Assembly: GCA_024233595.1 (NCBI GenBank)
Contig: JACKPK010000001.1
Span: 267,665 to 331,664 of the forward strand
Origin: Deltaproteobacteria bacterium
Lineage (GTDB): Bacteria; UBA10199; JADGCS01
DNA length: 64,000 nt
Direction: 5' to 3'
The position numbers and the translations under genes were made by a program. Shown here piece after piece: positions 801 through 58,472 of this stretch (position 1 is its first letter; each line of letters begins with the position of its first letter). The notes below the pieces were generated by a model, which was not told where the DNA came from, ran no database searches, and was given only the letters and a program-made list of their open reading frames with translations.

Positions 801-1712
801 TCATGAATTACCTCTTAAAAAATAATGAACATCCCTTACAAAGTCTTCTGGTTGTTCTAAATGAGGGTAGTGGCCGGAGTTGCGGTAACTTTTAATATGG
901 GCCAATTCTGGGTTTCCTGTCATTTCGCCACCCATTAAATAGTCATGAACCCCATTAATCCAAAGAGTTTTTTGTTTGAGAATGCTTACATCAATGGGTA
1001 GAACTTGAGAATTATCGGCGTAATACGATGTGCGGACTTGACGATAGATATCATCATTTTCAGCGATGTTGACCCGTGATTTAAGATCATCATACCAGGC
1101 CATCGTCTTGAGGTTGCCCCAATAAAATGCCTTACGACGCTCAGTCGAGTTCATTAGTCCACGAATTTCTTTAGAGACTTCCCATGGCGAGCCATTGTGA
1201 CATTTTAATATTTCTAAGGCTTGCATGTATTCCTGTGGTTGGTCTTCCTTTAAAATCAATAGGTCCATTGAGAGCGAGCGTTGCTGTGCCAATCGTCTAT
1301 CTACTGAGCGGCCAGCGATGATAAGTCTTAACAATAAATTCGGTCTATGTTTAAGTAAATCATAGGCTAAAAAGGCCCCATAACTATGACCAAAAATGGC
1401 AATTGTTTCTACATCTAATGCACTTTTTACTTGGTCACAAATATCTGATAGGTCTTGTCTATTGATGCTGTGGGTTAAAGCTGATGAAGCCCCTGCTGAA
1501 CGTCCGCATCCGCGTTGATCGTAACAAACCCAACCATAATCCATATTTTGATAAGCGGGGAGTTCTTGAAGTGCTTTTTCGAAGTAAGCACTGTGGCTCC
1601 CTGGCCCTCCATGAACGTAAAGAATATATCCTTTTACAGGCCTCGAAATATTTTCCGGTTCAAAAAGATTTGTTACCAAACCATTCACAATCGCACTGTT
1701 AACCAGCTTCAT
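801..1712 (-). CDS. Alpha/beta hydrolase, prolyl aminopeptidase (S33)-like
   Basis: 303-aa ORF. Carries 'HGGPGSHS' and 'YDQRGCGRS' motifs typical of proline iminopeptidase-family hydrolases, plus the nucleophile elbow 'GHSYGA' (GxSxG). Confidence 0.7.
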   Translation of the reverse strand: MKLVNSAIVNGLVTNLFEPENISRPVKGYILYVHGGPGSHSAYFEKALQELPAYQNMDYGWVCYDQRGCGRSAGASSALTHSINRQDLSDICDQVKSALDVETIAIFGHSYGAFLAYDLLKHRPNLLLRLIIAGRSVDRRLAQQRSLSMDLLILKEDQPQEYMQALEILKCHNGSPWEVSKEIRGLMNSTERRKAFYWGNLKTMAWYDDLKSRVNIAENDDIYRQVRTSYYADNSQVLPIDVSILKQKTLWINGVHDYLMGGEMTGNPELAHIKSYRNSGHYPHLEQPEDFVRDVHYFLRGNS

Positions 1713-1931: not shown

Positions 1932-4874
1932 CTAAGCAGTCTCTTTTATTTCTGTTTTGTGGAATAACGATTTAATATCACGTTCACTGACAGTAAAATC
2001 TTTTATCAACTCTTTCTTTTCTTGAGATAATCTAGCTAGCCAAACATCAACAATTGGGCTCCCATCAATTGTATCGACTACTTGGTCTTCACTTTTAGAC
2101 GCTATTGCTGTCGGGAAATATATCGATACAGGCTTTTTCTGACCCATCCGGTAAGCCCGACAAGTCGCCTGTTCAGTAACTGCAGGGTTCCACTCTCTAG
2201 TGTAATGTATAACATGATTTGCTTGTGTTAAAGTAATACCATAAGCAGCACTTCTCGGGTTGAGTATCATCACATCAAATTCATTAGGTGCAGCTCTTTT
2301 AAACTCTGCTACAGCATGGTCTCTCAAAGGTTTGTATTTACTACTCCCATCAAATATTTTCGGCGTCACTGTTTTAAAATGCATACCGATCAAATGCCGT
2401 AAATGATCACTTAGCTGTGTCCTGTTACAAAATATTAGGGCTTTTTCGCCTTTCTGATGAATCCTTTCTAAGATACTAAGAAGCAGATCAAATTTTGGGC
2501 ACATTGATTTTGCTAATTCAACGGAGGGGAAGGTCGCACGGTACCCATTTTCAGCCGCGAGGGAGCTTAGCCAGGGGGCGTTCACTACTATCTGTAGTTC
2601 GTGATAAAGAGGTAAAACCCCACCGACTGATTTGGCTAATATATTTCTATACAACCTAATCTGGTCTTCTGTAAGTGGGGCTGTTGTCTCACTCCATGGG
2701 ACATCAATTCTTTTTGGCAATTCATCTAAAACTTCTTCTTTAGTTCTTCTCAGCCAATTCTTACCCAAACGCCTCACTATACTTTTCCTGATTTCATCTC
2801 GCTCTTCGGAGCCAATTACCGATTGTTCAAGGGGCTGCAGGAAACTTTTTTGAAAATTAGTTAAGCTTCCAAACCTTTCACTTTGGACAAATTCCATGAT
2901 AGAATACAGATCAGAAAGTCGATTTTCCACTGGGGTACCAGTCATCGCACAGTAAAAATCTGCCTTAAAGCATTTTAAGGCTTCACTACGTTTAGAATTT
3001 AAATTTTTAATTGCTTGTGCCTCATCAATAATAACAACTTTAAAAGGCACAGCTGCTAACTCCTTGTGGTACAAGGTAGCACTTTGCCAAGTTATAAGTA
3101 GTACTTTACATAGCTTTGGTATATCTTGTTGAGCACGGAGGATTCGTTGATCTAATTGATGTGGCCCTCTAAGTATGTTTTTAATATCATTCCAAGATCT
3201 AGTAAATTTAGCTAGGCCAGGTGCAAATTTGTTTATATCTTCTTCCCAAGCATGTTTGATTAACGCGGCAGGAGCTATAATAATAGCAGGCTTCTCGTCT
3301 AATTCACCTTTTTTGAATAAAGCGTCCAAGAAGCTAATAACCTGAAATGTTTTGCCCACGCCCATATCATCAGCTAGCAAAAGTCCCCTGTGTGGTATTT
3401 TACCATCTTCCTTGTGGGCCAGTAGCCAAGATAATCTTGCAAAGCCAACTTTTTGATGAGGTCTCAACATGTCATCATGAGGTGCTGGTATATCATTGGC
3501 AAAATCGGACTCGCTTTTTTCTGGAGGCAATCCCATACTAGCTGCATAGTCGGCATCACGGAGTAAGCGTGTTTCTTCACTGACCCTAGCATTGTATTCA
3601 TTTCTTAATTTTAGAACAGCAACTTCGACAATATCTCTCACAAAAGAAACATCATCTATTATTATAGGATTGTCAGTCGATTGGTCGAGGCACGACTGTA
3701 GCTCATCTGAGGAATATTTACTTAGTTTACCAAGTTGATATGATTCAACAGCTTCAACAAATCTTGCAGCCTCTTCTTTACTAATCTCAAAATCTGAGTA
3801 ATTTACATCTCCGCTCTGATCTTCCAATTGCTCTTTAATCGCACGGTACTCCTCGTGACAGTTATCTAAGTTAACAGAAAATGGGCATGTTGAGTTCTTT
3901 GCCTCGATAAAAAAGTTTCTGTTTTCATTATCAAGTTTTTCGTCATAACCAGCATCATCCTTTGGGACTTTGTAATTTACTGGATCATAAGTAAACCCTA
4001 AAACTTGGTCAGAATAATTGGCAACCAACAGTTCGAATGCAACACCTTCTTGGCCATCACTCTGCATGTCATAAATTTCAGCCTGGAGTCTTCTGATGGC
4101 ATCTGGATCGTTGCTCACACGCGCTTCGTACAATTTTTTTGCCGCTTCTCTGCATCTCTCACTCATATAAACACGGGTTCTTTTGTCGCCTACTTTTGTG
4201 TGATAAATATTTTTAGATGCCCCGTCCTTATATATTTCTTCCCACAGCTTTGAATTAAGTTTCTGATCGTCATCCACTAATTTGGGTGCTATAGAAGGTT
4301 CATTTGCGCTATTAACCCCAAATTCGACTGGAAAACTGTCCTTAGCAATCACATCTACTCTTTGACTATTGCCTGACAAAATAACATTTGGACTAGATGT
4401 AGCTATTTCTTTTATCAGCTCATACTGTTTGTAAAATCTAAACTCAGCTTGGCTATCGTCACCGTGACTATCATTATTAAAATTGTCTATAAGCTTAATT
4501 AAGTTATAAATATCGGCTGGTATAAGTTTAGTTTCGCCATCTATACTAATTTGAAAATCAGAACGCCGTGATAAATCTGGTTTACTGCCACTTTTACTTG
4601 TGACCAAGTAGTCAAATCTCATGCTCTTTGACTTTAATGCACCATTGCTTCTTATGGATAAGTTGAGATCAGCAAAGCTTGGGATATGCTGAAAAAGTGT
4701 ATCGTCTATCGAAAACTCACTACTACCAATAGCCTTCCAAACAGCCCATAAAGCGTCACAACTAAACGTCACACTATCGGCGGTAAAACAGGCCCCCAGA
4801 TTTATAAGCTTTTCTTTGTCCAGCTTGATTTTATTTTGAAGTTCCTCATCAACAATATTAAAAGGTATCTTCAT
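1932..4874 (-). CDS. zorD: ZorD-like SNF2-family ATPase/helicase (Zorya effector candidate)
   Basis: 980-aa ORF. The C-terminal half has the full SNF2 motif set: 'DDMGVGKT' (GVGKT = nt 3348-3362), 'VVIIDEAQAIKN' (DEAQ = nt 3015-3026), 'MTGTPVENRLSDLYS' and 'QATCRAYRMGQ'. The N-terminal ~465 aa has no motif I can name. It is the last gene of a tightly packed operon behind MotA/MotB-like genes. Confidence 0.75.
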   Translation of the reverse strand: MKIPFNIVDEELQNKIKLDKEKLINLGACFTADSVTFSCDALWAVWKAIGSSEFSIDDTLFQHIPSFADLNLSIRSNGALKSKSMRFDYLVTSKSGSKPDLSRRSDFQISIDGETKLIPADIYNLIKLIDNFNNDSHGDDSQAEFRFYKQYELIKEIATSSPNVILSGNSQRVDVIAKDSFPVEFGVNSANEPSIAPKLVDDDQKLNSKLWEEIYKDGASKNIYHTKVGDKRTRVYMSERCREAAKKLYEARVSNDPDAIRRLQAEIYDMQSDGQEGVAFELLVANYSDQVLGFTYDPVNYKVPKDDAGYDEKLDNENRNFFIEAKNSTCPFSVNLDNCHEEYRAIKEQLEDQSGDVNYSDFEISKEEAARFVEAVESYQLGKLSKYSSDELQSCLDQSTDNPIIIDDVSFVRDIVEVAVLKLRNEYNARVSEETRLLRDADYAASMGLPPEKSESDFANDIPAPHDDMLRPHQKVGFARLSWLLAHKEDGKIPHRGLLLADDMGVGKTFQVISFLDALFKKGELDEKPAIIIAPAALIKHAWEEDINKFAPGLAKFTRSWNDIKNILRGPHQLDQRILRAQQDIPKLCKVLLITWQSATLYHKELAAVPFKVVIIDEAQAIKNLNSKRSEALKCFKADFYCAMTGTPVENRLSDLYSIMEFVQSERFGSLTNFQKSFLQPLEQSVIGSEERDEIRKSIVRRLGKNWLRRTKEEVLDELPKRIDVPWSETTAPLTEDQIRLYRNILAKSVGGVLPLYHELQIVVNAPWLSSLAAENGYRATFPSVELAKSMCPKFDLLLSILERIHQKGEKALIFCNRTQLSDHLRHLIGMHFKTVTPKIFDGSSKYKPLRDHAVAEFKRAAPNEFDVMILNPRSAAYGITLTQANHVIHYTREWNPAVTEQATCRAYRMGQKKPVSIYFPTAIASKSEDQVVDTIDGSPIVDVWLARLSQEKKELIKDFTVSERDIKSLFHKTEIKETA

Positions 4875-4884
4875 AATTCCTCTT

Positions 4885-6102
4885 TCAAAACCTATTTATA
4901 TATTTTCTTAGCTGATCAACACTATCCGTATTCCGCATTAGGTTCAGCACTGTGGACATTCGACTCTGCCAATACTTACCCTGGTGAGTCATTCGAGCAC
5001 TCATGTCACTTTTGTAGTCAGTAAATTCTTTAGCTCTTACTTCATCAAGCTTGTACCGGTAGTCATTAAATATATACACAGCACCACTTTCAGACTTTTC
5101 AACTACCCAAAAGTTATTGAATCGCATGCCAACAGCGTATGGAATTTTGCTTTTATAGTGTATTTCAAAGTCATCAATTTGATGCCAATAGTCAGACCAA
5201 AAAGCCTGCCTATCTAGATCTCTAAGAATTTTGTCTTTGACCTTTTGCCAGTCCAATAATTTTCGAATAAACTCCTCGTTCAATGCATTTGGCGACACAT
5301 GGGAGTCACCCTCAATGTGATAGAGAATCTCATTGCGTGATTTATAAACAGGAACGTCAACAAGCTCCGTAATAATCTGCACCAATTTATCGAGAGTTAT
5401 TTTTTTATCAGTGGTTAAACCATTCAGTACTGTTACTATACTATCGAAGCTCTCTTGACACCCAAAATCCCATGCAAGCTTCGCGGCACTATGAATTGCC
5501 TCTGTCTCCATCAGTGCCAACCTATGAGAATCAATTTCACTTAGGACAGACCTACATAACTCGATTCTTATTTCGTCACGAAAGTCAGTACCTATATTTT
5601 CTAGTAGCCCCAACAAATCTAAATCCTTGTCTTTGAAAGCCGTACTTAAGCTATCTATAAGATTGCCAACTGCATAGTAAGAACTATAATTTTCAACCAC
5701 ACCTACTGGTAGGTTGTCTTTTGCAACTTGATTTAAGATCTCCTTCCGTATCACCAAGGGAAGGTCGACAGCTATCAAAACACGCTGTGCAATGCGTGCC
5801 ATATATGGCCATCGCTCGGGATAACTGGCAAGATAGTGCTCTAGCCCCTCGATCTCGAGGGCTAGTTCTGAGTATCTCTTTAAAGAAAATAAAAAATGAT
5901 GCCTGTCCAAACTATACGTTGCATCTAATAGATCCGATTTTATTTTATTCTTAATTTCATCTAGGCCAATATACTCTCTCAGTTTAAGATCAGTTTTTTG
6001 AGAAACGCCCTCTACCAAAGCGAGCATTCGTTCAGGCTTTTTTTCTTTTAGCGGGATAGACTTCAACAACATGCCTAATTCAATTTTATCTAGCACACTC
6101 AT
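4885..6102 (-). CDS. zorC: ZorC-like protein (possible EH-signature domain), compact
   Basis: 405-aa soluble ORF in the third operon position. Its start overlaps the zorB stop by 1 nt (TAATG). The C-terminal pattern 'FWVVEKSESGAVYIF' (E335) followed by 'MTHQGKYW' (H373) resembles the separated Glu/His signature recalled for ZorC. The assignment rests mostly on synteny. Confidence 0.45.
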   Translation of the reverse strand: MSVLDKIELGMLLKSIPLKEKKPERMLALVEGVSQKTDLKLREYIGLDEIKNKIKSDLLDATYSLDRHHFLFSLKRYSELALEIEGLEHYLASYPERWPYMARIAQRVLIAVDLPLVIRKEILNQVAKDNLPVGVVENYSSYYAVGNLIDSLSTAFKDKDLDLLGLLENIGTDFRDEIRIELCRSVLSEIDSHRLALMETEAIHSAAKLAWDFGCQESFDSIVTVLNGLTTDKKITLDKLVQIITELVDVPVYKSRNEILYHIEGDSHVSPNALNEEFIRKLLDWQKVKDKILRDLDRQAFWSDYWHQIDDFEIHYKSKIPYAVGMRFNNFWVVEKSESGAVYIFNDYRYKLDEVRAKEFTDYKSDMSARMTHQGKYWQSRMSTVLNLMRNTDSVDQLRKYINRF

Positions 6103-6839
6103 TACTTGAAAAACTCCTTAAGACTCTTTTCTAGTGACTCAGGTTTTATGTAAAACCTTACAACTACTCGTCGGCTTGCACCATAATCAATCCAACCACA
6201 GCCTCTATTAGAATGATTGGTACACACATCATTCTGATGTTCTGTCTTCCTCGTAACGGGAAAAGCCCAAGAACGACCGTTTGCAGCCACCAACTTTTCG
6301 ATAAGGTATTTTTTGTCTAACCTATTTTTATAAACTGGCGAGTCTGTTCTGAGTACATGACTCGAAACATTAAAAGCACGAGACTGAGAAAGCTTTAAGT
6401 TATTAAAGTACTCACCTGTCGGATCTGAGTGCCCTTCAAACATTACAGATTCAACAGAATTAAAATATTGGTCTCTGAGCATAACGTTCAAATATCTAGG
6501 CATTATAATGTCTAACAATGTCTTGCCTGGCTCCTTCATGTCAGCACTGTTTAAATCAAATAACACTGCCTCATCGAAAGTTATGTCTCCATTATCATTA
6601 ATCTGAAATGATTTAGTTTTTAATGAACCCAACTCTTCGCGGAGGTCTTTTGTAATTTGGCTTCTTATACTAAAGGCCTCTTCGATTTTACTACGCACCT
6701 GTTCATTGGTCTTGGTCGTTTTGTTCCATTGACCAATTATCAGCACTAAGATGAGTATGAAGGTCAGTGCTAACGCTGACATCAAATCAGTAGTGCTTAT
6801 CCAAATATGCGATTGATCGCTTTCTTTACTTCGTTTCAT
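6102..6839 (-). CDS. zorB: ZorB-like MotB/OmpA-family peptidoglycan-binding stator subunit
   Basis: 245-aa ORF. It has a single N-terminal TM segment with a MotB-like 'WISTTDLMSALALTFILIL' containing a buried Asp (D18, nt 6786-6788). The C-terminal OmpA-like motif is 'FEGHSDPTGEYFNNLKLSQSRA'. Confidence 0.8.
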   Translation of the reverse strand: MKRSKESDQSHIWISTTDLMSALALTFILILVLIIGQWNKTTKTNEQVRSKIEEAFSIRSQITKDLREELGSLKTKSFQINDNGDITFDEAVLFDLNSADMKEPGKTLLDIIMPRYLNVMLRDQYFNSVESVMFEGHSDPTGEYFNNLKLSQSRAFNVSSHVLRTDSPVYKNRLDKKYLIEKLVAANGRSWAFPVTRKTEHQNDVCTNHSNRGCGWIDYGASRRVVVRFYIKPESLEKSLKEFFK

Positions 6840-6846
6840 GACACCA

Positions 6847-8475
6847 CTATCTATTTACTGCATTTTTTAGTTCTCTTATTTGTGATTCAAAAAGGGCTGC
6901 AATATTTTTAAAATTATCGGGAAGTTCTTTCGCAAAGCTATTGTTTACCTCATCAATTTTTGACAAATACTTATTGAGACCTTCAATATTTCTTTCATAA
7001 TCGGCCAATGAGTCCTGCAAATTTGTAATACCTGCAGCGAGTGCTTCATCAAACTTACCCAAGAAACCATCTACACGACCATTAACTGTCTCCAGGTGGT
7101 TGTTTACCAAGGAAGCAAAATCATTATGAGCTTTCACAAAACTTTCGCTGCTTTCTCGCCAACCAGTTATTAACTCGTTTTGAGAGGAATTAGATTTTTC
7201 TAGTATATCAGTGATTCGCAATGTAGATTCATCTATCTGCTTCAACTGTTCATTTGATTTTTCAACCATCTGACTCGTCTCGTTAACTATTGCAGATACT
7301 TTACCCTCTACTGATACCAAGTCAGAGTTAACCTGTGACGACTTCTCTAGATTGACCTGTTGAATATCTGACAGCTCTTTGATTCTTTTAGAAATCTCCA
7401 GTTGATCTGTATTTATATATTGCACCTGCTGAAAAACAAAGACGAACCAAGATTGGAACTGGTGGAGCATCTCTGTAATTTTTGCAAACTCAGATTCGAT
7501 TGATTCTCTCAGTTTTTCACCAACTTTATCTGACAACATACCACTATCCATGCCACTCAATGCGGAAAGAACTTTGTTCATTGAATTAAACTCTGCCCCA
7601 AGGCCACCATTGACTGCTTCTCCAATTTTTGCAGCCAACCCATTATCAGTCTCATCTACAATGACAGCAATGTCTTGTGCCATTCTCTTTATGTTGTAGT
7701 TTAAAGTGACTAATAACTCTTCACCAGTGACTCGAGGTATGAGATTGTCAATATGATAAGACAAATCGCTTACGGCTTTTTCTATCTTGTCTTGATAAAT
7801 GCGATTCACAAATGAAAATATCAAAGAGGTCGTCACACCGTAAAAGCTACTAATAAAAGCTACTTTCATCGACTCAAGGAGTCTCGTAGTCCCCTCTGAT
7901 AGTTGGTCAAAATGAATACCAGACAAGCCAGTAATGATACCATAAAAGGTCCCAAGTATACCTAAGCCACTTAAAATTGTTGGTGTGAGGTTATAGATAT
8001 GATCTGAAAAAATGCCTGTAACAATATTGTTCCAGCTAAATATCTCCGAGGCAGGTATCGCATTACCTACATTTTGATCACTTTCGCTGTTATTACGATT
8101 GTTATAAGCAGGGATACCCTCTTTATATTCTTCCCACAGTTTTTCTACGGTTTCGTGACACTTAAAAGTATCATCAAGCTCATTTAGATCAGAAAGCGTA
8201 GTAACACTACCATGCTTTTTCTGACCTAGTTGATGATTCACAATTATCAGGTGAGTCATTAGGGATTTAAATTGCTGCCGCATATAGGCGAGCATGCCGC
8301 AAAACCACATTATAACCAGGGAAGAAAACACTGCCGTGGGCGTATTTATCAATGGGTCTGGTATAGCGCTAATGTGGATATCGTATACTTTTAGTATCCA
8401 AACTACAGCTGTCACAAGCACCGCTATCAATATTGACACTCTAAATGCTTTTCTATTTTCTGAATCGTATTTCAT
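6847..8475 (-). CDS. zorA: ZorA-like MotA/ExbB/TolQ-family ion-channel subunit with long C-terminal helical tail
   Basis: 542-aa ORF. It has two N-terminal TM helices and then a MotA-type TM pair ('LTPTILSGLGILGTFYGIITGL', 'MKVAFISSFYGVTTSLIFSFV'). About 315 aa of polar, helix-prone tail follow. The SD GAGG lies 7 nt upstream of the ATG. Confidence 0.8.
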   Translation of the reverse strand: MKYDSENRKAFRVSILIAVLVTAVVWILKVYDIHISAIPDPLINTPTAVFSSLVIMWFCGMLAYMRQQFKSLMTHLIIVNHQLGQKKHGSVTTLSDLNELDDTFKCHETVEKLWEEYKEGIPAYNNRNNSESDQNVGNAIPASEIFSWNNIVTGIFSDHIYNLTPTILSGLGILGTFYGIITGLSGIHFDQLSEGTTRLLESMKVAFISSFYGVTTSLIFSFVNRIYQDKIEKAVSDLSYHIDNLIPRVTGEELLVTLNYNIKRMAQDIAVIVDETDNGLAAKIGEAVNGGLGAEFNSMNKVLSALSGMDSGMLSDKVGEKLRESIESEFAKITEMLHQFQSWFVFVFQQVQYINTDQLEISKRIKELSDIQQVNLEKSSQVNSDLVSVEGKVSAIVNETSQMVEKSNEQLKQIDESTLRITDILEKSNSSQNELITGWRESSESFVKAHNDFASLVNNHLETVNGRVDGFLGKFDEALAAGITNLQDSLADYERNIEGLNKYLSKIDEVNNSFAKELPDNFKNIAALFESQIRELKNAVNR

Positions 8476-8477: not shown

Positions 8478-8750
8478 CTACCTCATGAATAAATCCGTAA
8501 TCTTAACTTTCAAGGCGCCTGATACTTAAACCAAAGTTTTGAGCGTCGCATTTTTTTGACCAAACTCTATAAACTGCCAATAACGCAACGATGTGCCAGC
8601 GCGATATACACACTCTTGTTGACTTAATTTTTTTGAAATTCTGATGCGCTTGATTTTTGAACCTAACTTCGTGGTCACGAGACAAAACCGAATATAGCGA
8701 AGATCCAAACGCAACCAATATATCTTGAGCAAATATTTTGGCAATATCAC
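8478..8750 (-). pseudogene. XRE-family helix-turn-helix regulator interrupted by in-frame TAA, abutting zorA
   Basis: Frame B reads 'KLGSKIKRIRISKKLSQQECVYRAGTSLRYWQFIEFGQKNATLKTLV*VSGALKVKITDLFMR*'. This matches the HTH_3 pattern (..glsq.e.a...g.s...is.iE.G.r.psl.tl.kia.aL.v...dLf) on both sides of the stop at 8526-8528. The restored frame ends at 8478, 2 nt before the zorA ATG. The true start is uncertain: GTG at 8678 is plausible, and the ORF-track ATG is at 8750. Confidence 0.55.
8717..8744 (-). promoter_or_regulatory. Candidate sigma70-type promoter for the HTH-zorABCD unit
   Basis: The minus strand reads TTGCCA (8739-8744), a 16-nt spacer, then TATATT (8717-8722). It sits upstream of the GTG at 8678. 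Sequence pattern only. Confidence 0.3.
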
Positions 8751-8830
8751 CAGTACCGATGATCTCCCTATTCAGCATACAAACCTTTTCTTTTTGGTAT
8801 TTAGAGTCGATTTGGCTAATAAATAAAGCT

Positions 8831-8864
8831 ATTCCAATTTTTTTAAAATCCTAAAAATTGGAAT
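8831..8864. repeat. Perfect 12-bp inverted repeat (ATTCCAATTTTT / AAAAATTGGAAT) with 10-nt spacer
   Basis: Read directly: 8831-8842 and 8853-8864 are exact reverse complements. The repeat lies in the AT-rich intergenic region between aguA and the HTH/zorA unit. Confidence 0.8.
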
Positions 8865-9120
8865 ATAAACTGAGCTAAAAACTCTTTTTATTTCAAAAAC
8901 CTAAAATCAACCTGCTCATAAAACCTATAGGCAATAACATCTGTCTAAATTTATCTACACAACTGTCCAAAATATTGGAAAGCAGTCCAGTATTTTTAAC
9001 ACTTTTAATCAATAAACTGCGCCTACTCTTTCCTTCTCGGCAAAGAGGCCAATATGTTGCGTCTTTTTAGAAATGATTAGAATTTATTTAGATTGATTTC
9101 AAAATTCGCCAGGAAATCCC

Positions 9121-10194: not shown

Positions 10195-11076
10195 TCAATC
10201 TTGTCCAAAGCGCTTCAAAAGCCCGTCATAGGCATCAATGCGTCGATCCCGTAAAAAAGGCCAGCCACGACGATGCTCTTCGATGCGATTTAAATCGCAG
10301 CTCACAAGGATATTCTCTTCGTCGGTATGAGAAGCCTTGTGCACGATCTCACCAAAGGGATCTGCCACAAAAGAACCACCCCAGAATTCGATATTGCCCT
10401 CGCGCCCCACACGGTTCGGAGAAGCCACAAAAACCTCGTTAGCAATGGCATGACCAACCTGAACCCGCTGCCAGGCGTTGTATTGCTTGTCTCCGAAGAC
10501 TTTTTTGTCCTGTTCAAGCCAACCAATGGCTGTTGGATAGAAAATGATCTCAGCGCCTTGTAGAGCCGTTAAACGAGCACCCTCTGGAAACCACTGATCC
10601 CAGCAAATGAGCACCCCAATTTTAGCAAATTTAGTGTCAAAAACCTTAAAACCCATATCACCAGGGGTGAAATAGAATTTCTCGTAATAATTGGGGTCAT
10701 CGGGGATGTGCATTTTGCGGTACTTACCCAAATAAGAACCATCGGCATCAATAACAGCAGTGGTGTTGTGATAAAGTCCAGGGGCACGCTTTTCAAAGAG
10801 GCTTGCCACAATCACGACGCCCTCTTCTTTCGCCACAGCCTGTAAAATTTCGGTTGTGGGACCAGGGATCGCTTCAGCAAGGTCAAAAAGATCAGCGTCT
10901 TCCTTCTGGCAAAAATACAGATTATTAAAAAGCTCCTGAAAGCAAATGATTTGAGCGCCATCGGCCGCCAATTGGCGGCAATTTTTAATGGCCTTATCGA
11001 GATTGCCCTGTGTGTCACCAGAACAAGTCATTTGCACCAAGCCCAGTTTAACTTCTCGCGATTTGCCCATACGCAT
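10195..11076 (-). CDS. aguB: N-carbamoylputrescine amidase (CN-hydrolase/nitrilase family)
   Basis: 293-aa ORF with 'FQELF', 'KMHIPDDPNYYEKFYFTPGD' and 'IGVLICWDQWFPEGAR' (catalytic Cys), typical of N-carbamoylputrescine amidohydrolase. It is paired with aguA. Confidence 0.85.
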   Translation of the reverse strand: MRMGKSREVKLGLVQMTCSGDTQGNLDKAIKNCRQLAADGAQIICFQELFNNLYFCQKEDADLFDLAEAIPGPTTEILQAVAKEEGVVIVASLFEKRAPGLYHNTTAVIDADGSYLGKYRKMHIPDDPNYYEKFYFTPGDMGFKVFDTKFAKIGVLICWDQWFPEGARLTALQGAEIIFYPTAIGWLEQDKKVFGDKQYNAWQRVQVGHAIANEVFVASPNRVGREGNIEFWGGSFVADPFGEIVHKASHTDEENILVSCDLNRIEEHRRGWPFLRDRRIDAYDGLLKRFGQD

Positions 11077-11106
11077 CTCCTATGCGAATCTTATTAATAC
11101 GTTTTC

Positions 11107-11140
11107 AAAAAAAAAGCCAAAACGACATTCGCGTTTTGGC
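11107..11140 (-). terminator. Rho-independent terminator after rplQ
   Basis: The minus strand reads GCCAAAACG-CGAATGT-CGTTTTGGC followed by T9. It lies ~30 nt after the rplQ stop. Confidence 0.8.
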
Positions 11141-11170
11141 TTCTCGAAAAAATTCGATTTTAGGCTCACT

Positions 11171-11773
11171 TTATTTATCTGTAGCCTTTTTCTTAGCTGC
11201 CGCTTTCTTTTTTGGAGCTGCTTTCTTTGCTGTTGTTTTTTTAGCAGCAGCCTTTTTAGCTGGCTTCTTTTCAGCATCATCAGCTTTTTTAGCTTTTGTT
11301 GCTGTCTTAGCTTTCTTTTCTTCTTTTGCTGTTTCTTCAGATTTTTTAGCCGCTGGTTTCTTCTTAGGAGCCGCTTTTTTCTCAGCTACTTTTCCTTCAA
11401 CCTTAGCAGAAAGCAAATCTTCCTGAAGGTATTCAATGATAGCCATCTGAGCAGCATCACCAACACGGTGACCAAGCTTCATGATACGTGTGTAACCACC
11501 TTTGCGTGCTTCAAAAGAAGGAGCAATTTCAGCAAAAAGTTTTTGAACACCAGCTCGATTGCGAAGCAAATCGAATGCCTTACGGCGAGCGTGCAAGCTG
11601 TCTTCTTTACTGATAGTCACAAGCTTGTCGGCAAAACGACGAAGCTCTTTTGCTTTTTCCAAAGTTGTCTTGATACGACCATGCTCAATCAAAGAGCTAG
11701 CCATATTTCTAAGCATCGCTTTACGGTGAGAAGAAGTTCTTCCCAATTTGCGACCTTTTACCTGATGTCTCAT
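11171..11773 (-). CDS. rplQ: 50S ribosomal protein L17 with ~75-aa Lys/Ala-rich C-terminal extension
   Basis: The N-terminus '[37 protein letters not shown]' is canonical bL17. The ORF is 200 aa, and the tail is '[15 protein letters not shown]...[12 protein letters not shown]'. Confidence 0.95.
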
Positions 11774-11825
11774 AGTGATTCTCCAATGCAGAACTCATTG
11801 CCCTGCGAATAACGCCAACGCTTTC

Positions 11826-49890: not shown

Positions 49891-49913
49891 ATAAAAATTT
49901 TTTTCCTTAATTT

Positions 49914-51086
49914 TTATCTGTTGTTTAAGGAACGCTCCAACACAAGAGCAGAAAGAGTCACACCAATCACTGAAGAAATAATACCAACATACTTCACAAA
50001 GTTTTCAATGGCTTTTTTCTTAACAATGATCACATCACCCGCTTGAATGGTTTGCTCTAATTTTCGACGTACTTTTTTTCCATTTCTAAAAACAATCACT
50101 GAACCCAAACGCGCTTCAGCTGTTGCTCCTGCATAAGCAACATAGTCTTTAATGCGAAAATGAGACTTATAAGGAAAGGCCCCAGGAGAAATCACAGCAC
50201 CAATCACAAAGACATCTGCCACACTTGTCGGGTAGACTAAATTTTCGCCAGGAATGCTCTCGACTGAGTAGTCGAACTTTTTATGAGAGTTGATGATATC
50301 AGGAACAATGATCACATCGCCCTTTTCGATTTCGAATTTTTTAATGTCACGACGATTTTGCTCAACATCTAAAACTATTTTTTGTCCGTCTTCCGTAAAA
50401 CGAATCACACGTATAGGGGCTTTTTTAGCCACTGACTTGGTCACGCCACCTGCGAGTGAGAGAATCTGAGAAAGATTTTTTTCGTAGTACAATTCAAATA
50501 CCCCGGGACGAGCAACAGGACCTTCGATCCGTACTGCGCCTTTGGGGTTTGGAACAAAAATCACATCGTTGTCTTCAACAAAGGGGTTGTTTTTTAAATC
50601 ACCCGACTGAAAATACCGGTAAAGATCATAAGTTTTTCCACGCTCACCTTGCTTTCTAAGCTCGATCACACGAACAGAAGCGCGAGTCGGCACAGCCAAT
50701 TTGAGCAAATCAGCAGCTCTTGTTCCAGCTTGCACCGTGAATAAGCCTGGGTTTTGCACATCACCCAAAATGTGAACCTGAATGGTCTGCATTTTAACAA
50801 GACCAAAACCAAGCCCTTGTCCTGCACCACCTTGTAATCCAGCCGCCTGTTGCAAGATTTGTCTGTTTTGATTGCTCTGACTCAGATCGGTTACTGAACC
50901 CGGCGTTAGCGGATCATTGGGATTGCTATTGTTTTGGCTGCCACCAAGTTGACGTTGCAAACCCAATTGCGAGGTGTATTGTGCCCAAACAGGAAAAGGA
51001 AAAACGAAACTAAAAATCAAAAAAACAACGAGACATTTTGAAAATGAAGAAGTCATCAGATTCTTAAATAAGTTGGGTTGTTTCAT
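49914..51086 (-). CDS. Polysaccharide export protein (Wza/SLBB-like)
   Basis: 390 aa with an N-terminal signal sequence, repeated SLBB-like 'NDVIFVP', 'GDVIIVP' and 'GDVIIVKK' motifs, and a C-terminal TM segment. Confidence 0.6.
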   Translation of the reverse strand: MKQPNLFKNLMTSSFSKCLVVFLIFSFVFPFPVWAQYTSQLGLQRQLGGSQNNSNPNDPLTPGSVTDLSQSNQNRQILQQAAGLQGGAGQGLGFGLVKMQTIQVHILGDVQNPGLFTVQAGTRAADLLKLAVPTRASVRVIELRKQGERGKTYDLYRYFQSGDLKNNPFVEDNDVIFVPNPKGAVRIEGPVARPGVFELYYEKNLSQILSLAGGVTKSVAKKAPIRVIRFTEDGQKIVLDVEQNRRDIKKFEIEKGDVIIVPDIINSHKKFDYSVESIPGENLVYPTSVADVFVIGAVISPGAFPYKSHFRIKDYVAYAGATAEARLGSVIVFRNGKKVRRKLEQTIQAGDVIIVKKKAIENFVKYVGIISSVIGVTLSALVLERSLNNR

Positions 51087-51260
51087 AAAAGTTTCTCTTC
51101 ATTTTGACCATTGACATCTAGCAATCGCCAAAAAATCAACAAAATCATAATCTCATGCGAAAAAGCCCTATTGCAAATGTTCGCCCATGCAATCAAGCGC
51201 TATTTAAATCGTTTATTATTTTACTAAAATTGGAACGTATTTGATTCTATGAAACTATAC

Positions 51261-52055
51261 TTATTCTTTTTTCTTTTTCACTGCTGCTATTACAATTTTA
51301 GGTCTATTTTCGCTCTTATCGAAAAAAAGTTCTTTCTTTTCTAAAACAAAAAATCCACTGTTTGAAAGGAGTTCAAAATAATTATGAGAAAAACCAACTG
51401 TTTTTGTATGATCATTGTCGATTTCTTTACTTGCCGTATATTGCATAAAGTCTAGATTTACTGGTTCGTGTATTATAATGACACAATTCAATGGAATAGT
51501 ATTCAATATTCTTTTAACTGTATTTGAATGTAAAAAAAATAAAGTTTGGCAAGATAGAAAAACTGTACATCCCTCAAAACTTTGAAGGTTTTCAATATTT
51601 TCGCACTCAAAAGTGATTTTTTTAAATTCTCTAAAATACTGATTAGCAAATTCAATACTTGCTGCATTTATATCATAGCCAGAGTACCGACACCCTAATT
51701 CATCAATTCCAAGTCTCTTGGGCCATTGCCCTGCCGAACAACCAATCTCAACTACGATTGAATTTGAATTAAGATATTTTTTTGCCATTTCATAAAAATC
51801 ACTATAATTTTTACTCCAACTTTTACTTTCTCTTTGAAACTGAGATTTGGCATGAAGAAAACCTCCTTCTCGGCCCCAAAATAATTTTGCTAATTCACCA
51901 TGTTTTGTAGATCTAGCATACAGCTTTCTATATATTGGCCAAGTAAACCGCTTCAAAATCTTTGAAGTAATACTAGGCTTAGTTTGTTTTCGCTCAAAAT
52001 TTCTGATGAATATTTGTGTAAGAAAATTCAAATTAATCTCCTGATATTTAGGCAT
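51261..52055 (-). CDS. Class I SAM-dependent methyltransferase
   Basis: 264 aa with motif I 'VVEIGCSAGQW'. It lies in the glycan locus. Confidence 0.5.
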   Translation of the reverse strand: MPKYQEINLNFLTQIFIRNFERKQTKPSITSKILKRFTWPIYRKLYARSTKHGELAKLFWGREGGFLHAKSQFQRESKSWSKNYSDFYEMAKKYLNSNSIVVEIGCSAGQWPKRLGIDELGCRYSGYDINAASIEFANQYFREFKKITFECENIENLQSFEGCTVFLSCQTLFFLHSNTVKRILNTIPLNCVIIIHEPVNLDFMQYTASKEIDNDHTKTVGFSHNYFELLSNSGFFVLEKKELFFDKSENRPKIVIAAVKKKKE

Positions 52056-52121
52056 TTCTCAAAAAACACTAAATCTGATTTTGACATAGCATCACATTAA
52101 AAATAATAATTCCCAATTGAT

Positions 52122-53210
52122 TTAAAAAAAGTCAAATATAACATGATACTCAACCCAATGTTGCCTTAGTTCCAAATTCATAAATAAAATAACTATGGAC
52201 AAAAATGCTATTCCCATACTCACAACTTTCTTTTCTTTGAATAGAGAAATTAAAAAAGCTATTACAACGGGATCCCCTGCTGATAAAAATGTTGCAATCC
52301 GAGCAGCTAAAATAGGAATCTCTTGAAGAGCAAAAAGCCACGCTGTAGATAAAATGTACATAACCATTATTGGATAAAAATATTTAAACTTAGTTTTCAA
52401 AATTTCTTTAGAACCAACTAGAAAAAAACAAAAAAATAATTGTTTTAATGTCATTGGATTTAAAACTCCTAAAGCATCATCGGAATATGTTTCTTGATAC
52501 CACGCAAGCTTTTGAGGCAACACATTGGCAGCGCCCATAAGATTTAGGAAACTATCAAGCCAACTTGTTAAACCTAACGCAAACCCAACTATTAAAGGGA
52601 AAAAAAGCATCTTCTTCCCAAAATCTTTTTTGCAAACCCAGTAAACTGGCAATGCAATTATAGCGCCAACATGAAATAAAAATGCTAGAATAATAGCCAC
52701 CGTATACTGCAGAGGCTTTTTATGAACAATAAAGTACACAGAACAAAGCACAATCGCACTGGCAAGACCCGCACGAATTTGAATCAATTCTTTATAAAGG
52801 AATAAATGAGAAAAATACCAAAGTAATGAAAGCAAAGGGTAAGGAGAAAATTTCTTAAACGCAACGCAGTTTAGTCCCACAGCCAAGGCCGCCACAATAA
52901 CAAAGACTGGAATGCTACTATCAAAAAAAGTTTTAACCAAGGTGTTTAAAAATAAATAAAGAAATTCACCATGAATGCGAGGTGGATTTCCACCATAATA
53001 AAGAAAATCATAAAGATGAACTGTCTCACCATAAATGCCCACGTAATTGCCGTAATCGGTAAACCAAAACCCTCTAAAACCAGCCATACAAGCTAAGATC
53101 ACAAAACCAATAAAAAGATACGCTGGCTGCATGTATTTAGAATGAGCGTAGGCATCCAAAAAACAAAAGAGCAGCAGAACAAAAGCCACAACGTAATAAG
53201 TGAGCATCAT
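52122..53210 (-). CDS. EpsG-family / Wzy-like polysaccharide polymerase
   Basis: 362-aa polytopic membrane protein. The N-terminal 'GFRGFWFTDYGNYVGIY' resembles the EpsG motif (R..vG.D...Y). Confidence 0.55.
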   Translation of the reverse strand: MMLTYYVVAFVLLLFCFLDAYAHSKYMQPAYLFIGFVILACMAGFRGFWFTDYGNYVGIYGETVHLYDFLYYGGNPPRIHGEFLYLFLNTLVKTFFDSSIPVFVIVAALAVGLNCVAFKKFSPYPLLSLLWYFSHLFLYKELIQIRAGLASAIVLCSVYFIVHKKPLQYTVAIILAFLFHVGAIIALPVYWVCKKDFGKKMLFFPLIVGFALGLTSWLDSFLNLMGAANVLPQKLAWYQETYSDDALGVLNPMTLKQLFFCFFLVGSKEILKTKFKYFYPIMVMYILSTAWLFALQEIPILAARIATFLSAGDPVVIAFLISLFKEKKVVSMGIAFLSIVILFMNLELRQHWVEYHVIFDFF

Positions 53211-54433
53211 GCGGCCTGCCTTTTTTGGCTTTGCTGATTTGGCAAATTAACCATGGAACGTGCACGCTCCAACCAAGTGTATTTTTGTAAATAGTCCTGA
53301 CGCGCTTCGAATGCTAAACGCTTTGCAAACTCAGGGTCTTGTATCAGAGTGTTTAAACAGGAGCTCCATTCCTTAGCGTCATCGCAAGTTGCCAAGAGAC
53401 AGTTTTTTTGATGCCCCAACACTTCTCTGAGGACTGGCAAATCCGAGGAAATAATCGGCACACCCGAAGCCATGTATTCAAACATTTTCATTGGCGACAT
53501 CCATTTTGAAGTGTCTGAATTTTTAGCACCAATGGAGACCGATTTTTGATACGGCATCAGCAAAACGTCCATTGATTTCATGTAATCAATGACCTCTAAA
53601 GGAGGAACATGCCCCACAATCTGTAAATTACTTGGCAAGGCTTGCGCTTTAAGAGCGTTGATTTCGATCTCGTTACCACCAAACACAAAAAAACTCTGAT
53701 CTGAATTCTGACGAGCCATTTCGACAATGACTTCAATGCCACGCCCCGGATACAAATGCCCAAAATACCCCACGCAAAACTGCTTTTCATTTTTTAAAAA
53801 TGCCGCAAGGTGCTGGGCTCTAAATTTTTGTTTTTGAATTTGTGTAAAAGGTTCAATGCCCGCGGGAGCCGCATCGGCAAAGACATGAACGTTTTTTAAA
53901 AAATCTTGCTCTAAACTAAGGTGTTCCGCCAAAATTGTTTTTAAAGCATCTGTAATGACAACTGTTTGCACGTTTGGATGAGTCACTAAAAAATTTTGCC
54001 ATTTCTTTTTGCGTCCTGACTCTGGATTATGGGTTTCATAAACCAAAGGCACTTTCACAAAACGCGCAACCAAATAAGACGCGTAGAAATTTCTAGAGAC
54101 AACCAGCTGCAAACGCCCTTTTAAGGATGATTTAAGAACCTGCCAAAAACCAAACAAACCCAAAATAATGTTCAAACCCTTTTGAAAAGGAAGATTGATT
54201 GTTTTTAAATTTAAGTTTGGAAAGGAAGCACCATAAAACGATTCTAAATGAGAACGCAGGCCTTTTTTATTTTTGATCGATCGGTAAGCTGTTAAGAGCA
54301 CCGAGCCTTTGTGAAAAGAACTCAAGGCTTCGCACATCCGAATCACATGAATCGAGTTGGCTGTACGCGATGGCACAATTGATGGCGAAACATATATGAT
54401 CTGGTTTTTTGTGTCTGATTCTATGGAGTGCAA
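53207..54433 (-). CDS. Glycosyltransferase, GT4 (GT-B fold)
   Basis: 408 aa with the C-terminal 'SPMKMFEYMASGVPIISSDLPVLREVL' (EX7E-type motif). Confidence 0.7.
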   Translation of the reverse strand: MHSIESDTKNQIIYVSPSIVPSRTANSIHVIRMCEALSSFHKGSVLLTAYRSIKNKKGLRSHLESFYGASFPNLNLKTINLPFQKGLNIILGLFGFWQVLKSSLKGRLQLVVSRNFYASYLVARFVKVPLVYETHNPESGRKKKWQNFLVTHPNVQTVVITDALKTILAEHLSLEQDFLKNVHVFADAAPAGIEPFTQIQKQKFRAQHLAAFLKNEKQFCVGYFGHLYPGRGIEVIVEMARQNSDQSFFVFGGNEIEINALKAQALPSNLQIVGHVPPLEVIDYMKSMDVLLMPYQKSVSIGAKNSDTSKWMSPMKMFEYMASGVPIISSDLPVLREVLGHQKNCLLATCDDAKEWSSCLNTLIQDPEFAKRLAFEARQDYLQKYTWLERARSMVNLPNQQSQKRQAA

Positions 54434-54457
54434 AATAGCCCCATCACAAAATTTTAT

Positions 54458-55456: not shown

Positions 55457-55475
55457 TTATCCTCCAACTAAAAAA

Positions 55476-58463: not shown

Positions 58464-58472
58464 AGAACCTGC

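What the first reader, a model, noticed from the sequence alone, without database searches (positions are those of the whole stretch)
1932..8475. Compact Zorya type I-like anti-phage operon: MotA-like, MotB/OmpA-like, 405-aa protein and SNF2 ATPase
Seen in sequence: four co-directional minus-strand genes are packed with a 1-nt overlap or 7-10-nt gaps (8475->6847, 6839->6102, 6102->4885, 4874->1932). Gene 1 (542 aa) has a MotA/ExbB/TolQ-type TM pair ('LTPTILSGLGILGTFYGIITGL', 'MKVAFISSFYGVTTSLIFSFV') followed by a ~315-aa helical tail. Gene 2 (245 aa) has a MotB-like plug/TM segment with a buried Asp ('WISTTDLMSALALTF', D18) and an OmpA-type PG-binding end ('GHSDPTG..LSQSRA'). Gene 4 carries every SNF2 ATPase motif (GVGKT, DEAQ, TGTP, QATCRAYRMGQ). 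Established: this content and order define type I Zorya (Doron et al. 2018). In that system a PG-anchored ZorAB ion-driven motor is thought to sense envelope perturbation and recruit ZorC/ZorD against invading DNA. Inference: this is a Zorya-like defence module. Every non-membrane part is shorter than the E. coli prototype as I remember it (roughly 730/250/560/1080 aa; unverified). It also carries its own HTH gene and sits on an AT-rich islet, so it may be a divergent, uncharacterised subtype.
Basis: partly seen in the sequence, partly recalled or inferred. Interest (0 to 1): 0.85.

Follow-up and report, generated by a model that had tools for sequence, protein, structure and literature searches.

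The report
Divergent compact type I Zorya operon
This is a complete four-gene type I Zorya anti-phage system (zorA-zorB-zorC-zorD) from a poorly sampled bacterial lineage; it is a known kind of system, and its only unusual feature is a third gene so diverged that only the short "EH signature" module still identifies it as ZorC.

Summary
Gene 1 is ZorA (PADLOC ZorA1 1e-29). It keeps all six mutationally tested EcZorA residues. Gene 2 is ZorB (ZorB1 4e-48). It has D18 in place of EcZorB D26 and keeps three of four PG-binding residues. Gene 4 is ZorD (ZorD1 4e-119). Its N-terminal domain alone still hits ZorD (2e-14), and Walker A and DEAQ are intact.

Gene 3 (405 aa) fails every curated ZorC/EH_Signature threshold. 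It has no detectable relative among 1.84 billion representative proteins. It is still a remote ZorC:
- It matches a bona fide 423-aa ZorC at co-linear positions (BLASTP E=3e-5).
- It is the top hit of a short-ZorC profile among 5,090 real ORFs.
- It keeps D295/R298/W302/E335/H373, the counterparts of EcZorC D332/R335/W339/E400/H443.

Compact type I operons with ~400-aa ZorCs lacking the E. coli C-terminal domain already exist in databases (Fusobacterium and metagenomes). This is therefore a very divergent member of a known kind, not a new subtype.

The upstream HTH gene is split by an in-frame stop. The "AT-rich islet" is weak. Activity is untested.

The parts
6847..8475 (-). zorA (542 aa): MotA/ExbB-like membrane motor subunit with a helical cytoplasmic tail of about 294 aa
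   Evidence: PADLOC ZorA1 scores 1e-29, and 18 further ZorA models also hit. Pfam MotA_ExbB passes its cut-off at 33.1 bits. The PDB match to EcZorA 8qyd/8qyy is about 1e-13. EcZorA E86/E89 (Ca2+ site), P136, I144 and T147/S184 (ion filter) correspond to E116/E119/P165/I173/T176/S210, all conserved. The tail alone weakly matches the C-terminal tips of ZorA1 models (about 5e-4). There are two N-terminal hydrophobic segments, as in the compact ZorAs of L001 and L084.
6102..6839 (-). zorB (245 aa): single-TM MotB-like subunit with the essential Asp (D18) and an OmpA-type peptidoglycan-binding domain
   Evidence: PADLOC ZorB1 PDLC00609 scores 4e-48 over the full length. PDB matches are 8vvi_A at 7e-12 and EcZorB 8qyd_F at 6e-11. 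EcZorB D26 corresponds to D18. The PG-binding residues N152/L155/R159 correspond to N147/L150/R154, while Y151 is replaced by N146. The Pfam OmpA hit is below its cut-off (22.7 against 27.2 bits). The gene overlaps gene 3 by 1 nt.
4885..6102 (-). zorC-like gene (405 aa): remote ZorC homologue recognisable only through its C-terminal EH-signature module (about residues 291-386); the N-terminal ~290 aa have no detectable relative
   Evidence: There is no hit at E<=0.01 in PADLOC, Pfam or NCBIfam. The protein finds only itself among 5.8e9 proteins (word-indexed search) and 1.84e9 representatives (exhaustive search). Faint co-linear hits are ZorC1 PDLC00626 at E=0.034 and EH_Signature at E=2.4. 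hhalign against the short-ZorC alignment gives E=0.0035. The HMM score is 9.5 bits, reached by 2 of 2000 shuffles. It ranks first of 5,090 real ORFs. BLASTP against ZorC P0131 gives E=3e-5. The residues kept in family-invariant columns are D295, R298, F301, W302, Y305, A323, M326, E335, G340, H373 and W378.
1932..4874 (-). zorD (980 aa): ZorD-type N-terminal domain plus a SNF2 ATPase/nuclease domain; no Mrr domain
   Evidence: PADLOC ZorD1 scores 4e-119. The N-terminal 460 aa alone hit ZorD1 at 2e-14. Pfam SNF2-rel_dom scores 7e-42 and Helicase_C 4e-14. The PDB match to EcZorD 8qy7 is 2.5e-56. The Walker A Lys is K508, the DEAQ box is at 617-620, and EcZorD E651 corresponds to D546. Identity to the ZorD of Fusobacterium locus L084 is 27% over 890 aa.
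8478..8750 (-). XRE-type HTH gene abutting zorA, interrupted by an in-frame TAA (8526-8528); the likely start is the GTG at 8678 or at 8750
   Evidence: The translation reads ...NATLKTLV*VSGALKVKITDLFMR*. The read-through product matches HTH_3 over 1-55/55 and HTH_19 over 1-60/64. The truncated product matches only 1-40/64. PADLOC HTH_VI and control-protein models give weak hits. A promoter-like site lies at 8744-8717.
8830..8865 (.). Perfect 13-nt inverted repeat in the intergenic region between aguA and the HTH/zor operon; possible operator or terminator
   Evidence: One search found TATTCCAATTTTT / AAAAATTGGAATA with a 10-nt spacer. Related TTGGAA/TTCCAA half-sites lie at 8966-8980 and 9049-9059. 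Its function is not tested.

Best explanation
The locus is a chromosomal type I Zorya anti-phage system in the canonical zorA-zorB-zorC-zorD order, from an isolated and poorly sampled lineage.

The mechanism is inferred by homology to the E. coli system (Hu et al. 2024, PMC11946911):
- ZorA and ZorB assemble into an inner-membrane ZorA5B2 proton-driven rotary motor.
- ZorB D18 carries the proton, and the ZorB OmpA-like domain anchors to peptidoglycan when phage entry perturbs the envelope.
- Rotation is passed down the pentameric ZorA coiled-coil tail. Here the tail is about 294 aa, roughly 40 nm if scaled from 507 aa for about 70 nm in E. coli.
- The tail recruits and activates the soluble effectors. 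These are the EH-signature DNA-binding protein (gene 3, ZorC) and the auto-inhibited SNF2 ATPase-nuclease ZorD, which degrades the incoming phage DNA without killing the cell.

Shown here: gene identity, gene order, conservation of the mutationally essential residues, and remote homology of gene 3 to ZorC. Inferred: the 5:2 assembly, proton drive, recruitment, nuclease activity, and any defence phenotype.

Gene 3, like the ~400-aa ZorCs of Fusobacterium-type operons, ends about 25-30 residues after the signature His. It therefore lacks the C-terminal globular domain that EcZorC needs for DNA binding. DNA binding must then rest on the core domain alone or on ZorD.
For: - ZorA, ZorB and ZorD match PADLOC models at 1e-29, 4e-48 and 4e-119.
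- Their best solved-structure relatives are Zorya ZorA, ZorB and ZorD.
- Six of six tested EcZorA residues are conserved, along with ZorB D26, three of four PG-binding residues, and the ZorD Walker A and DEAQ motifs.
- The ZorD-specific N-terminal domain is detected on its own.
- The four genes are co-directional and translationally coupled.
- Gene 3 links to ZorC by BLASTP E=3e-5 against P0131, which sits in a zorABCD operon. hhalign gives E=0.0035.
- In shuffle tests, 2 of 2000 and 0 of 1000 shuffles reach the real score. Gene 3 ranks first of 5,090 real ORFs.
- Three sub-family profiles all map to the same co-linear region.
- The EH-network residues are conserved via the profile bridge to PDB 8r68.
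- With the family alignment, AF2 confidence rises only in residues 293-405.
- Gene 3 is 405 aa, against 401-423 aa for compact ZorCs.
Against: - Gene 3 fails every curated threshold. EH_Signature scores 7.8 bits against a cut-off of 27.5, and the best ZorC model gives E=0.034.
- Its first ~290 residues show no similarity to anything.
- No usable structure model was obtained, and the fold search was uninformative.
- All NCBIfam hits fall below their curated cut-offs.
- The ZorA tail is about 40% shorter than in E. coli, where every tail truncation abolished defence.
- ZorC lacks the C-terminal domain required in E. coli.
- The adjacent HTH gene carries a nonsense codon, which could signal decay.
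- No phenotype is available.
Confidence: 0.85

Rival explanations
1. This is a ZorAB-ZorD system in which the third gene is not a true ZorC. Instead it is an unrelated or chimeric adaptor that has replaced most of ZorC. On this view a new ~290-aa N-terminal region was fused to, or converged on, a short EH-like module. That would make it a new Zorya subtype.
For: Gene 3 has no detectable homologue in 1.84e9 representative proteins. Residues 1-290 hit nothing. Similarity to ZorC is limited to about 90 residues. AF2 does not gain confidence in the N-terminal part even with the ZorC family alignment.
Against: The region that is similar is the functionally defining one, and it keeps all mapped network residues. 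Total length and the position of the module match compact ZorCs almost residue for residue (293 against 296). The N-terminal parts of bona fide ZorCs are also poorly conserved between sub-families: Pfam hits are only 'weak' or 'faint', and identity within alignment A1 is 27-36%. Gene order is canonical.
Confidence: 0.08
2. This is a decaying or inactive Zorya remnant. The system is no longer under selection, and gene 3 has drifted beyond recognition.
For: The HTH gene directly upstream has an in-frame TAA. Gene 3 is an orphan. All NCBIfam scores are far below the equivalog cut-offs.
Against: All four zor ORFs are intact across 6.5 kb of 38% GC DNA, where stop codons arise easily. Every mutationally essential residue checked in ZorA, ZorB and ZorD is retained, apart from one conservative E-to-D change and one PG-binding Tyr. 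In gene 3 the signature residues survive in otherwise unrecognisable sequence, which is the pattern expected under purifying selection on function. The stop in the HTH gene may also be an assembly error in a MAG.
Confidence: 0.1
3. This is a flagellar stator (MotAB) or Ton/Tol-type (ExbBD/TolQR) motor that merely happens to sit next to an unrelated SNF2 helicase such as a DISARM DrmD or Dpd DpdE homologue.
For: Pfam sees only generic MotA_ExbB and OmpA domains. The helicase also matches DpdE and DrmD models.
Against: Zorya-specific models win by a large margin. ZorD1 scores 4e-119, against 1e-58 for DpdE and 1e-17 for DrmD. MotB NCBIfam models reach only E=0.01-0.02. ZorA has the long helical tail that MotA, ExbB and TolQ lack. 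The ZorD-specific N-terminal domain is present. There are no flagellar, TonB, Tol-Pal, Dpd or DISARM partner genes in the 64-kb window.
Confidence: 0.01

Closest known systems
E. coli NCTC9026 type I Zorya (EcZorI; ZorA5B2 PDB 8QYD, ZorC 8R68, ZorD 8QY7; Hu et al., Nature 2024)
   Same: The gene order zorABCD is the same. ZorA shares the MotA/ExbB-like transmembrane core with the same Ca2+-site glutamates, ion-filter Thr/Ser, Pro kink and Ile. ZorB shares the essential Asp and the OmpA-like PG-binding domain. ZorC shares the EH-signature network residues. ZorD shares the N-terminal domain and the SNF2 domain with Walker A and DEAQ.
   Different: Sequence identity is low, and only the core regions align. 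The ZorA tail is about 294 aa against 507 aa. There is a predicted extra N-terminal hydrophobic segment in ZorA. ZorC is 405 aa against 560 aa, lacks the linker and C-terminal globular domain that EcZorC needs for DNA binding, and has an unrecognisable N-terminal 290 aa. ZorD is 980 aa against 1,080-1,086 aa, with an N-terminal region about 110 aa shorter. One PG-binding Tyr is replaced by Asn. An interrupted HTH gene sits upstream.
Compact type I Zorya operons with ~400-aa ZorC (Fusobacterium pseudoperiodonticum CP024699 = L084; metagenomic L001, L082/L083)
   Same: They share the four-gene order and a ZorB of the PADLOC PDLC00609 type. The ZorC is 401-423 aa, with the EH module at the same residue positions and no C-terminal globular domain. 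ZorA has two N-terminal hydrophobic segments.
   Different: Identity is only 21-25% for ZorA, 29-31% for ZorB and 27-33% for ZorD. For ZorC it is about 30% over 54-73 residues. Their ZorCs are recognised by PADLOC and Pfam models, and gene 3 is not. Their ZorAs (583-746 aa) and ZorDs (1,156-1,169 aa, some with a C-terminal Mrr_cat domain) are longer. None has an upstream HTH gene.
Type II and type III Zorya (ZorAB + ZorE HNH; ZorGABF)
   Same: They share the ZorAB motor module. The window ZorB's best PDB hit is, by a small margin, 8vvi_A, and the ZorA tail also aligns with ZorA2 models. 8vvi is presumably the type II Sulfuricurvum ZorAB of Mariano et al., but I did not verify that entry-to-paper link.
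   Different: There is no ZorE, ZorF or ZorG. The effectors here are ZorC-like and ZorD, which define type I.

Membership tests
Zorya type I | ZorA: MotA/ExbB-like transmembrane domain followed by a long helical cytoplasmic tail | tested here: met
   PADLOC ZorA1 scores 1e-29. The PDB match to EcZorA is about 1e-13. Six of six functional residues are conserved. The tail is about 294 aa with 1 Pro, gives coiled-coil-type weak Pfam hits, and weakly matches ZorA1 tail tips.
Zorya type I | ZorB: single TM helix with the universally conserved Asp, plus a peptidoglycan-binding OmpA-like domain | tested here: met
   ZorB1 scores 4e-48 over the full length. D18 corresponds to EcZorB D26. N147/L150/R154 correspond to N152/L155/R159. 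The Pfam OmpA hit is just below its cut-off.
Zorya type I | ZorC recognised by curated ZorC / EH_Signature (PF15611) models at their thresholds | tested here: not met
   There is no PADLOC, Pfam or NCBIfam hit at E<=0.01. The best hits are ZorC1 PDLC00626 at E=0.034 and EH_Signature at 7.8 bits against a cut-off of 27.5.
Zorya type I | ZorC: EH-signature motif (EcZorC E400, H443 with D332, R335, W339) and homology to bona fide ZorC | tested here: met
   D295/R298/W302/E335/H373 fall in the corresponding family-invariant columns. BLASTP against ZorC P0131 gives E=3e-5. hhalign gives E=0.0035. Shuffle and real-ORF controls agree. The counterpart of EcZorC W458 could not be mapped.
Zorya type I | ZorD: SNF2-family ATPase with a ZorD-type N-terminal domain and intact ATP-site motifs | tested here: met
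   ZorD1 scores 4e-119, and the N-terminal domain alone scores 2e-14. The match to EcZorD 8qy7 is 2.5e-56, with K508 and DEAQ 617-620 intact.
Zorya type I | Canonical co-directional gene order zorA-zorB-zorC-zorD | tested here: met
   One search shows one strand, with a 7-nt gap, a 1-nt overlap and a 10-nt gap. Hu et al. give zorABCD as the type-specific order.
Zorya type I | NCBIfam equivalog cut-offs for ZorA1/ZorB1/ZorD (automatic naming) | tested here: not met
   All scores are far below the cut-offs: 70 against 750, 55 against 400, and 230 against 1,500 bits. The nearest miss is antiphage_ZorA_2 at 97.1 against 100. This reflects divergence rather than a different family.
Zorya type I | ZorA5B2 assembly and protection against phage that needs all four genes | not testable with these tools
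   No multimer prediction or experiment is available here.
Zorya type II / III | ZorE (HNH) or ZorF/ZorG next to zorAB | tested here: not met
   No such hits were found among the flanking ORFs. The neighbours are an alpha/beta hydrolase and aguA/aguB.
Flagellar stator MotAB / ExbBD / TolQR | Best match to stator or Ton/Tol models, with motility or transport neighbours | tested here: not met
   MotB models reach only E=0.01-0.02, against 6e-15 to 4e-48 for ZorB models. No flagellar, TonB or Tol-Pal genes occur in the window.

The most novel reading that the evidence does not exclude
Gene 3 may be a minimal, lineage-specific ZorC. On this reading only the ~90-residue EH-signature module is ancestral, and the ~290-residue N-terminal part is a new or radically remodelled domain matched to this system's short (~40 nm) ZorA tail. 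If so, the EH module would be the irreducible core of ZorC function. The rest of ZorC, the C-terminal DNA-binding domain and roughly 200 residues of ZorA tail would all be dispensable or exchangeable. That would be a natural minimal type I Zorya.
Probability: 0.12. Interest if true: 0.55.

Novelty: new member of a known kind. Interest (0 to 1): 0.3.

Why it matters
For genome annotation, this is a complete type I Zorya that rule-based tools needing all four components would probably miss or call incomplete. That is my inference from PADLOC's completeness rules, described; I did not run PADLOC's system caller. The cause is that ZorC is invisible to current models, and adding this sequence to ZorC profiles would widen their reach.

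For mechanism, this system and the Fusobacterium-type compact operons are natural variants lacking two features that were essential in E. coli. These are the ZorC C-terminal DNA-binding domain and about 200 residues of ZorA tail. Testing one of them would show whether those requirements are general or depend on co-adapted partners.

Apart from this, the finding is an ordinary instance of a well-described defence system.

Tried and rejected
- Word-indexed homologue search and exhaustive HMMER search with gene 3 found only the protein itself.
- The PDB sequence search with gene 3 gave only noise.
- AF2 on gene 3 alone gave pLDDT 43.6. With the ZorC family alignment it gave 48.8. Neither model is good enough, and Foldseek against the PDB returned only generic helical repeats at E>=0.03. 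The alignment-guided model is also partly circular, so I used only the local rise in confidence at 293-405 as weak support.
- A metagenome contig scan with gene 3 found no relative.
- A genome scan with a two-sequence ZorB alignment chose poor patterns and found nothing.
- A genome scan with the neighbouring aguA gene aimed to find related genomes and test for insertion. The best match was only 49% identical, so no synteny comparison was possible. I reused those loci as a real-ORF background.
- An exact-sequence look-up of gene 3's contig was not on record.
- Pfam PF28082 (ZorA-like_t1) could not be tested, because it is absent from the local Pfam copy. Bona fide ZorAs also fail to hit it there.
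- The promoter and terminator scan was not above shuffle expectation, and no terminator-like site was found after zorD.
- Rfam found only tRNAs.
- I considered and rejected a MotAB/ExbBD/TolQR motor, a DISARM or Dpd helicase context, and type II or III Zorya (see the rivals and the membership table).
Full report
**1. Observation**

The six-frame ORF list shows four co-directional minus-strand ORFs at exactly the reported coordinates:
- 8475->6847 (542 aa)
- 6839->6102 (245 aa)
- 6102->4885 (405 aa)
- 4874->1932 (980 aa)

They are separated by a 7-nt gap, a 1-nt overlap and a 10-nt gap. All quoted peptide motifs are present. In 38% GC DNA, intact ORFs of this length are not chance events.

**2. 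Three of the four genes are unambiguous Zorya components**

The results are:
- Gene 1: ZorA1 at 1e-29, plus 18 other ZorA models.
- Gene 2: ZorB1 at 4e-48 over its full length.
- Gene 4: ZorD1 at 4e-119.

The competing helicase families score far worse for gene 4 (DpdE 1e-58, DrmD 1e-17). Pfam sees only the generic domains: MotA_ExbB, OmpA just below its cut-off, and SNF2-rel_dom with Helicase_C. NCBIfam points to the same Zor families, but every score is below the curated cut-offs. That measures how divergent the system is.

Against solved structures, the best relatives are EcZorA (8qyd/8qyy, about 1e-13), ZorB chains 8vvi_A and 8qyd_F (7e-12 and 6e-11) and EcZorD (8qy7, 2.5e-56).

I mapped the residues that Hu et al. 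(PMC11946911) showed to be functionally important.
- ZorA: Ca2+-site E86/E89, P136, I144 and ion-filter T147/S184 correspond to E116/E119/P165/I173/T176/S210. All are conserved.
- ZorB: D26 corresponds to D18. PG-binding N152/L155/R159 correspond to N147/L150/R154, while Y151 is replaced by N146.
- ZorD: the Walker A Lys is K508, the DEAQ box is at 617-620, and E651 corresponds to D546.

The ZorD N-terminal 460 residues on their own still hit a ZorD model at 2e-14. This is therefore a ZorD and not a generic SNF2 protein. It has no Mrr domain, unlike some ZorDs.

**3. Gene 3 is the interesting part**

It has no hit at E<=0.01 in PADLOC, Pfam or NCBIfam. It finds only itself in the word-indexed search of 5.8 billion proteins. 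The same is true of the exhaustive phmmer search of 1.84 billion representatives. It finds nothing in the PDB and nothing in metagenome contigs.

With thresholds relaxed, two faint hits fall co-linearly at the C-terminal end. These are ZorC1 PDLC00626 (E=0.034 over 5,027 models) and Pfam EH_Signature (E=2.4 over 24,736 models).

The nearest ZorD relative (P0003, 33% identity over the helicase half) lies in a compact zorABCD operon, L001. Its ZorC is 408 aa. That protein leads to a family of 118 ZorCs of about 400 aa, many from Fusobacterium. They sit in ordinary type I operons.

I tested gene 3 against this family in several ways:
- hhalign aligns gene 3 residues 295-386 to profile positions 295-391, with pairwise E=0.0035.
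- hmmsearch gives 9.5 bits, reached by 2 of 2,000 composition-matched shuffles.
- Among 5,090 real ORFs from the window and 80 unrelated loci, gene 3 is the top hit.
- Three sub-family profiles each find the same region.
- The most divergent member, P0131, gives 15 bits, which 0 of 1,000 shuffles reach. Its direct BLASTP match is E=3e-5, at 274-345 against 292-351.

The same family profile hits the solved EcZorC (8r68_A, 3e-8). That hit supplies the residue bridge. Gene 3 D295/R298/W302/E335/H373 occupy the columns of EcZorC D332/R335/W339/E400/H443. These residues form the EH-signature electrostatic network, and the E400A and H443A mutations abolish defence.

Single-sequence AF2 independently predicts a three-strand meander at 322-346, the stretch that aligns with the family's conserved block around the signature Glu. 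With the family alignment, confidence rises only in residues 293-405 (pLDDT 61-84).

The first ~290 residues remain unmatched by anything. The global model is too poor for fold comparison.

I conclude that gene 3 is a remote ZorC homologue through its EH-signature module. I cannot show that the N-terminal two-thirds are homologous to ZorC.

**4. How compact is it, and is that new?**

| Protein | Here (aa) | E. coli (aa) |
|---|---|---|
| ZorA | 542 | 729 |
| ZorB | 245 | 246 |
| ZorC | 405 | 560 |
| ZorD | 980 | 1,080-1,086 |

The E. coli sizes come.

By alignment, the ZorA tail begins near residue 249. It is therefore about 294 aa against 507 aa in E. coli, or roughly 40 nm by proportion to the measured ~70 nm.

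Gene 3 and all the ~400-aa ZorCs end about 25-30 residues after the signature His. They therefore lack the linker and the C-terminal globular domain (EcZorC 487-560), whose deletion abolished DNA binding and defence in E. coli.

These sizes are near the low end of what existing models already cover. PADLOC ZorA1 profiles are 487-727 positions long, the ZorC profiles I saw are 437-575, and the ZorD profiles are 817-1,208. The compact format also occurs in Fusobacterium and in metagenomic operons.

The two N-terminal hydrophobic segments in ZorA are shared with the compact ZorAs of L001 and L084. This rests on hydropathy alone.

What is particular to this locus is its isolation. Identity to the nearest operons is about 21-25% for ZorA, 29-31% for ZorB and 27-33% for ZorD. 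No close genome relative exists among GTDB species representatives.

**5. Surroundings**

The source is a MAG labelled "Deltaproteobacteria bacterium" (locus tag H7A33_01305, contig 374.5 kb).

The operon sits in core chromosome, directly after the ribosomal-protein/rpoA/rplQ cluster and the aguB-aguA genes. An alpha/beta hydrolase follows it. There is no integrase, transposase or tRNA beside it within the window.

GC is 38.4% against 42.2% for the rest of the window. A polysaccharide cluster at 51-58 kb is lower still, at 35.5%. The "AT-rich islet" argument is therefore weak.

The upstream XRE-type HTH gene abuts zorA but is split by an in-frame TAA at 8526-8528. The sequence after the stop continues the HTH domain, because the read-through product matches HTH_3 1-55/55. 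This is either a real nonsense mutation or a MAG error.

A perfect 13-nt inverted repeat lies upstream at 8830-8865.

**6. Mechanism**

By homology, ZorA5B2 is a proton-driven, PG-anchoring rotary motor. On phage-induced envelope perturbation, it signals through the ZorA tail. The signal recruits and activates ZorC (DNA binding) and the auto-inhibited ZorD nuclease, which degrade the incoming DNA locally.

Here I have shown only the component identities, the gene order and the conservation of critical residues. Assembly, ion drive, recruitment, nuclease activity and protection are all inferred.

**7. Verdict**

It is not a new subtype. It is a very divergent member of the little-studied compact form, with a ZorC that current models cannot see.

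Interest is modest. The locus extends ZorC sequence space. It also offers a natural test of whether the long tail and the ZorC C-terminal domain are universally needed.

Noticed in passing
window 8478-8750 (minus strand); stop at 8526-8528: The XRE-type HTH gene immediately upstream of zorA is interrupted by an in-frame TAA. The downstream sequence (VSGALKVKITDLFMR) completes the HTH domain and ends 2 nt before the zorA ATG. This is either a pseudogene or a MAG assembly error.
   Followed up: partly
window 8830-8865, 8966-8980, 9049-9059: There is a perfect 13-nt inverted repeat TATTCCAATTTTT/AAAAATTGGAATA with a 10-nt spacer. Related TTGGAA/TTCCAA half-sites occur elsewhere in the aguA-HTH intergenic region. 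These could be operator sites for the HTH protein or a weak terminator for aguA.
   Followed up: no
window 11171-11773 (minus strand): Ribosomal protein L17 (rplQ) carries a Lys/Ala-rich, histone-H1-like C-terminal extension of about 75 aa. The long antisense 'ORFs' at 10988-11812 and 11082-11426 are low-complexity artefacts of this stretch.
   Followed up: no
window ~49900-58500: The lowest-GC stretch of the window (35.5%) is a surface-polysaccharide cluster. It encodes an SLBB export protein, an EpsG-type polymerase, a GT1 glycosyltransferase, two methyltransferases and HisH/HisF-like genes. One 520-aa ORF (55476-57038) has no Pfam hit at E<=1e-5.
   Followed up: partly
window 6102-6839 (ZorB residues 205-217): Relative to the L001 ZorB, ZorB has a 13-aa insertion containing two cysteines (C206, C214). 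EcZorB's PG-binding domain is known to carry disulfide bridges, so this may be a periplasmic disulfide loop.
   Followed up: no
window 6847-8475 (ZorA residues 7-66); L001 1121-2935; L084 5550-7301: The ZorAs of this locus and of two compact operons show two N-terminal hydrophobic segments before the cytoplasmic domain. That suggests four rather than three TM helices. This rests on hydropathy only.
   Followed up: partly
window 801-1712 (minus strand): An alpha/beta-hydrolase gene (S33/proline-iminopeptidase-like) lies 219 nt downstream of zorD on the same strand, with similar low GC3. It has no defence-model hit, and no terminator-like site was found between it and zorD. Co-transcription cannot be excluded.
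   Followed up: partly
whole window / L002-L081: The genome has no close relative among 185,579 GTDB species representatives. The best aguA match is 49% identical, to a Binatia MAG. The NCBI label is 'Deltaproteobacteria bacterium' MAG.
   Followed up: partly
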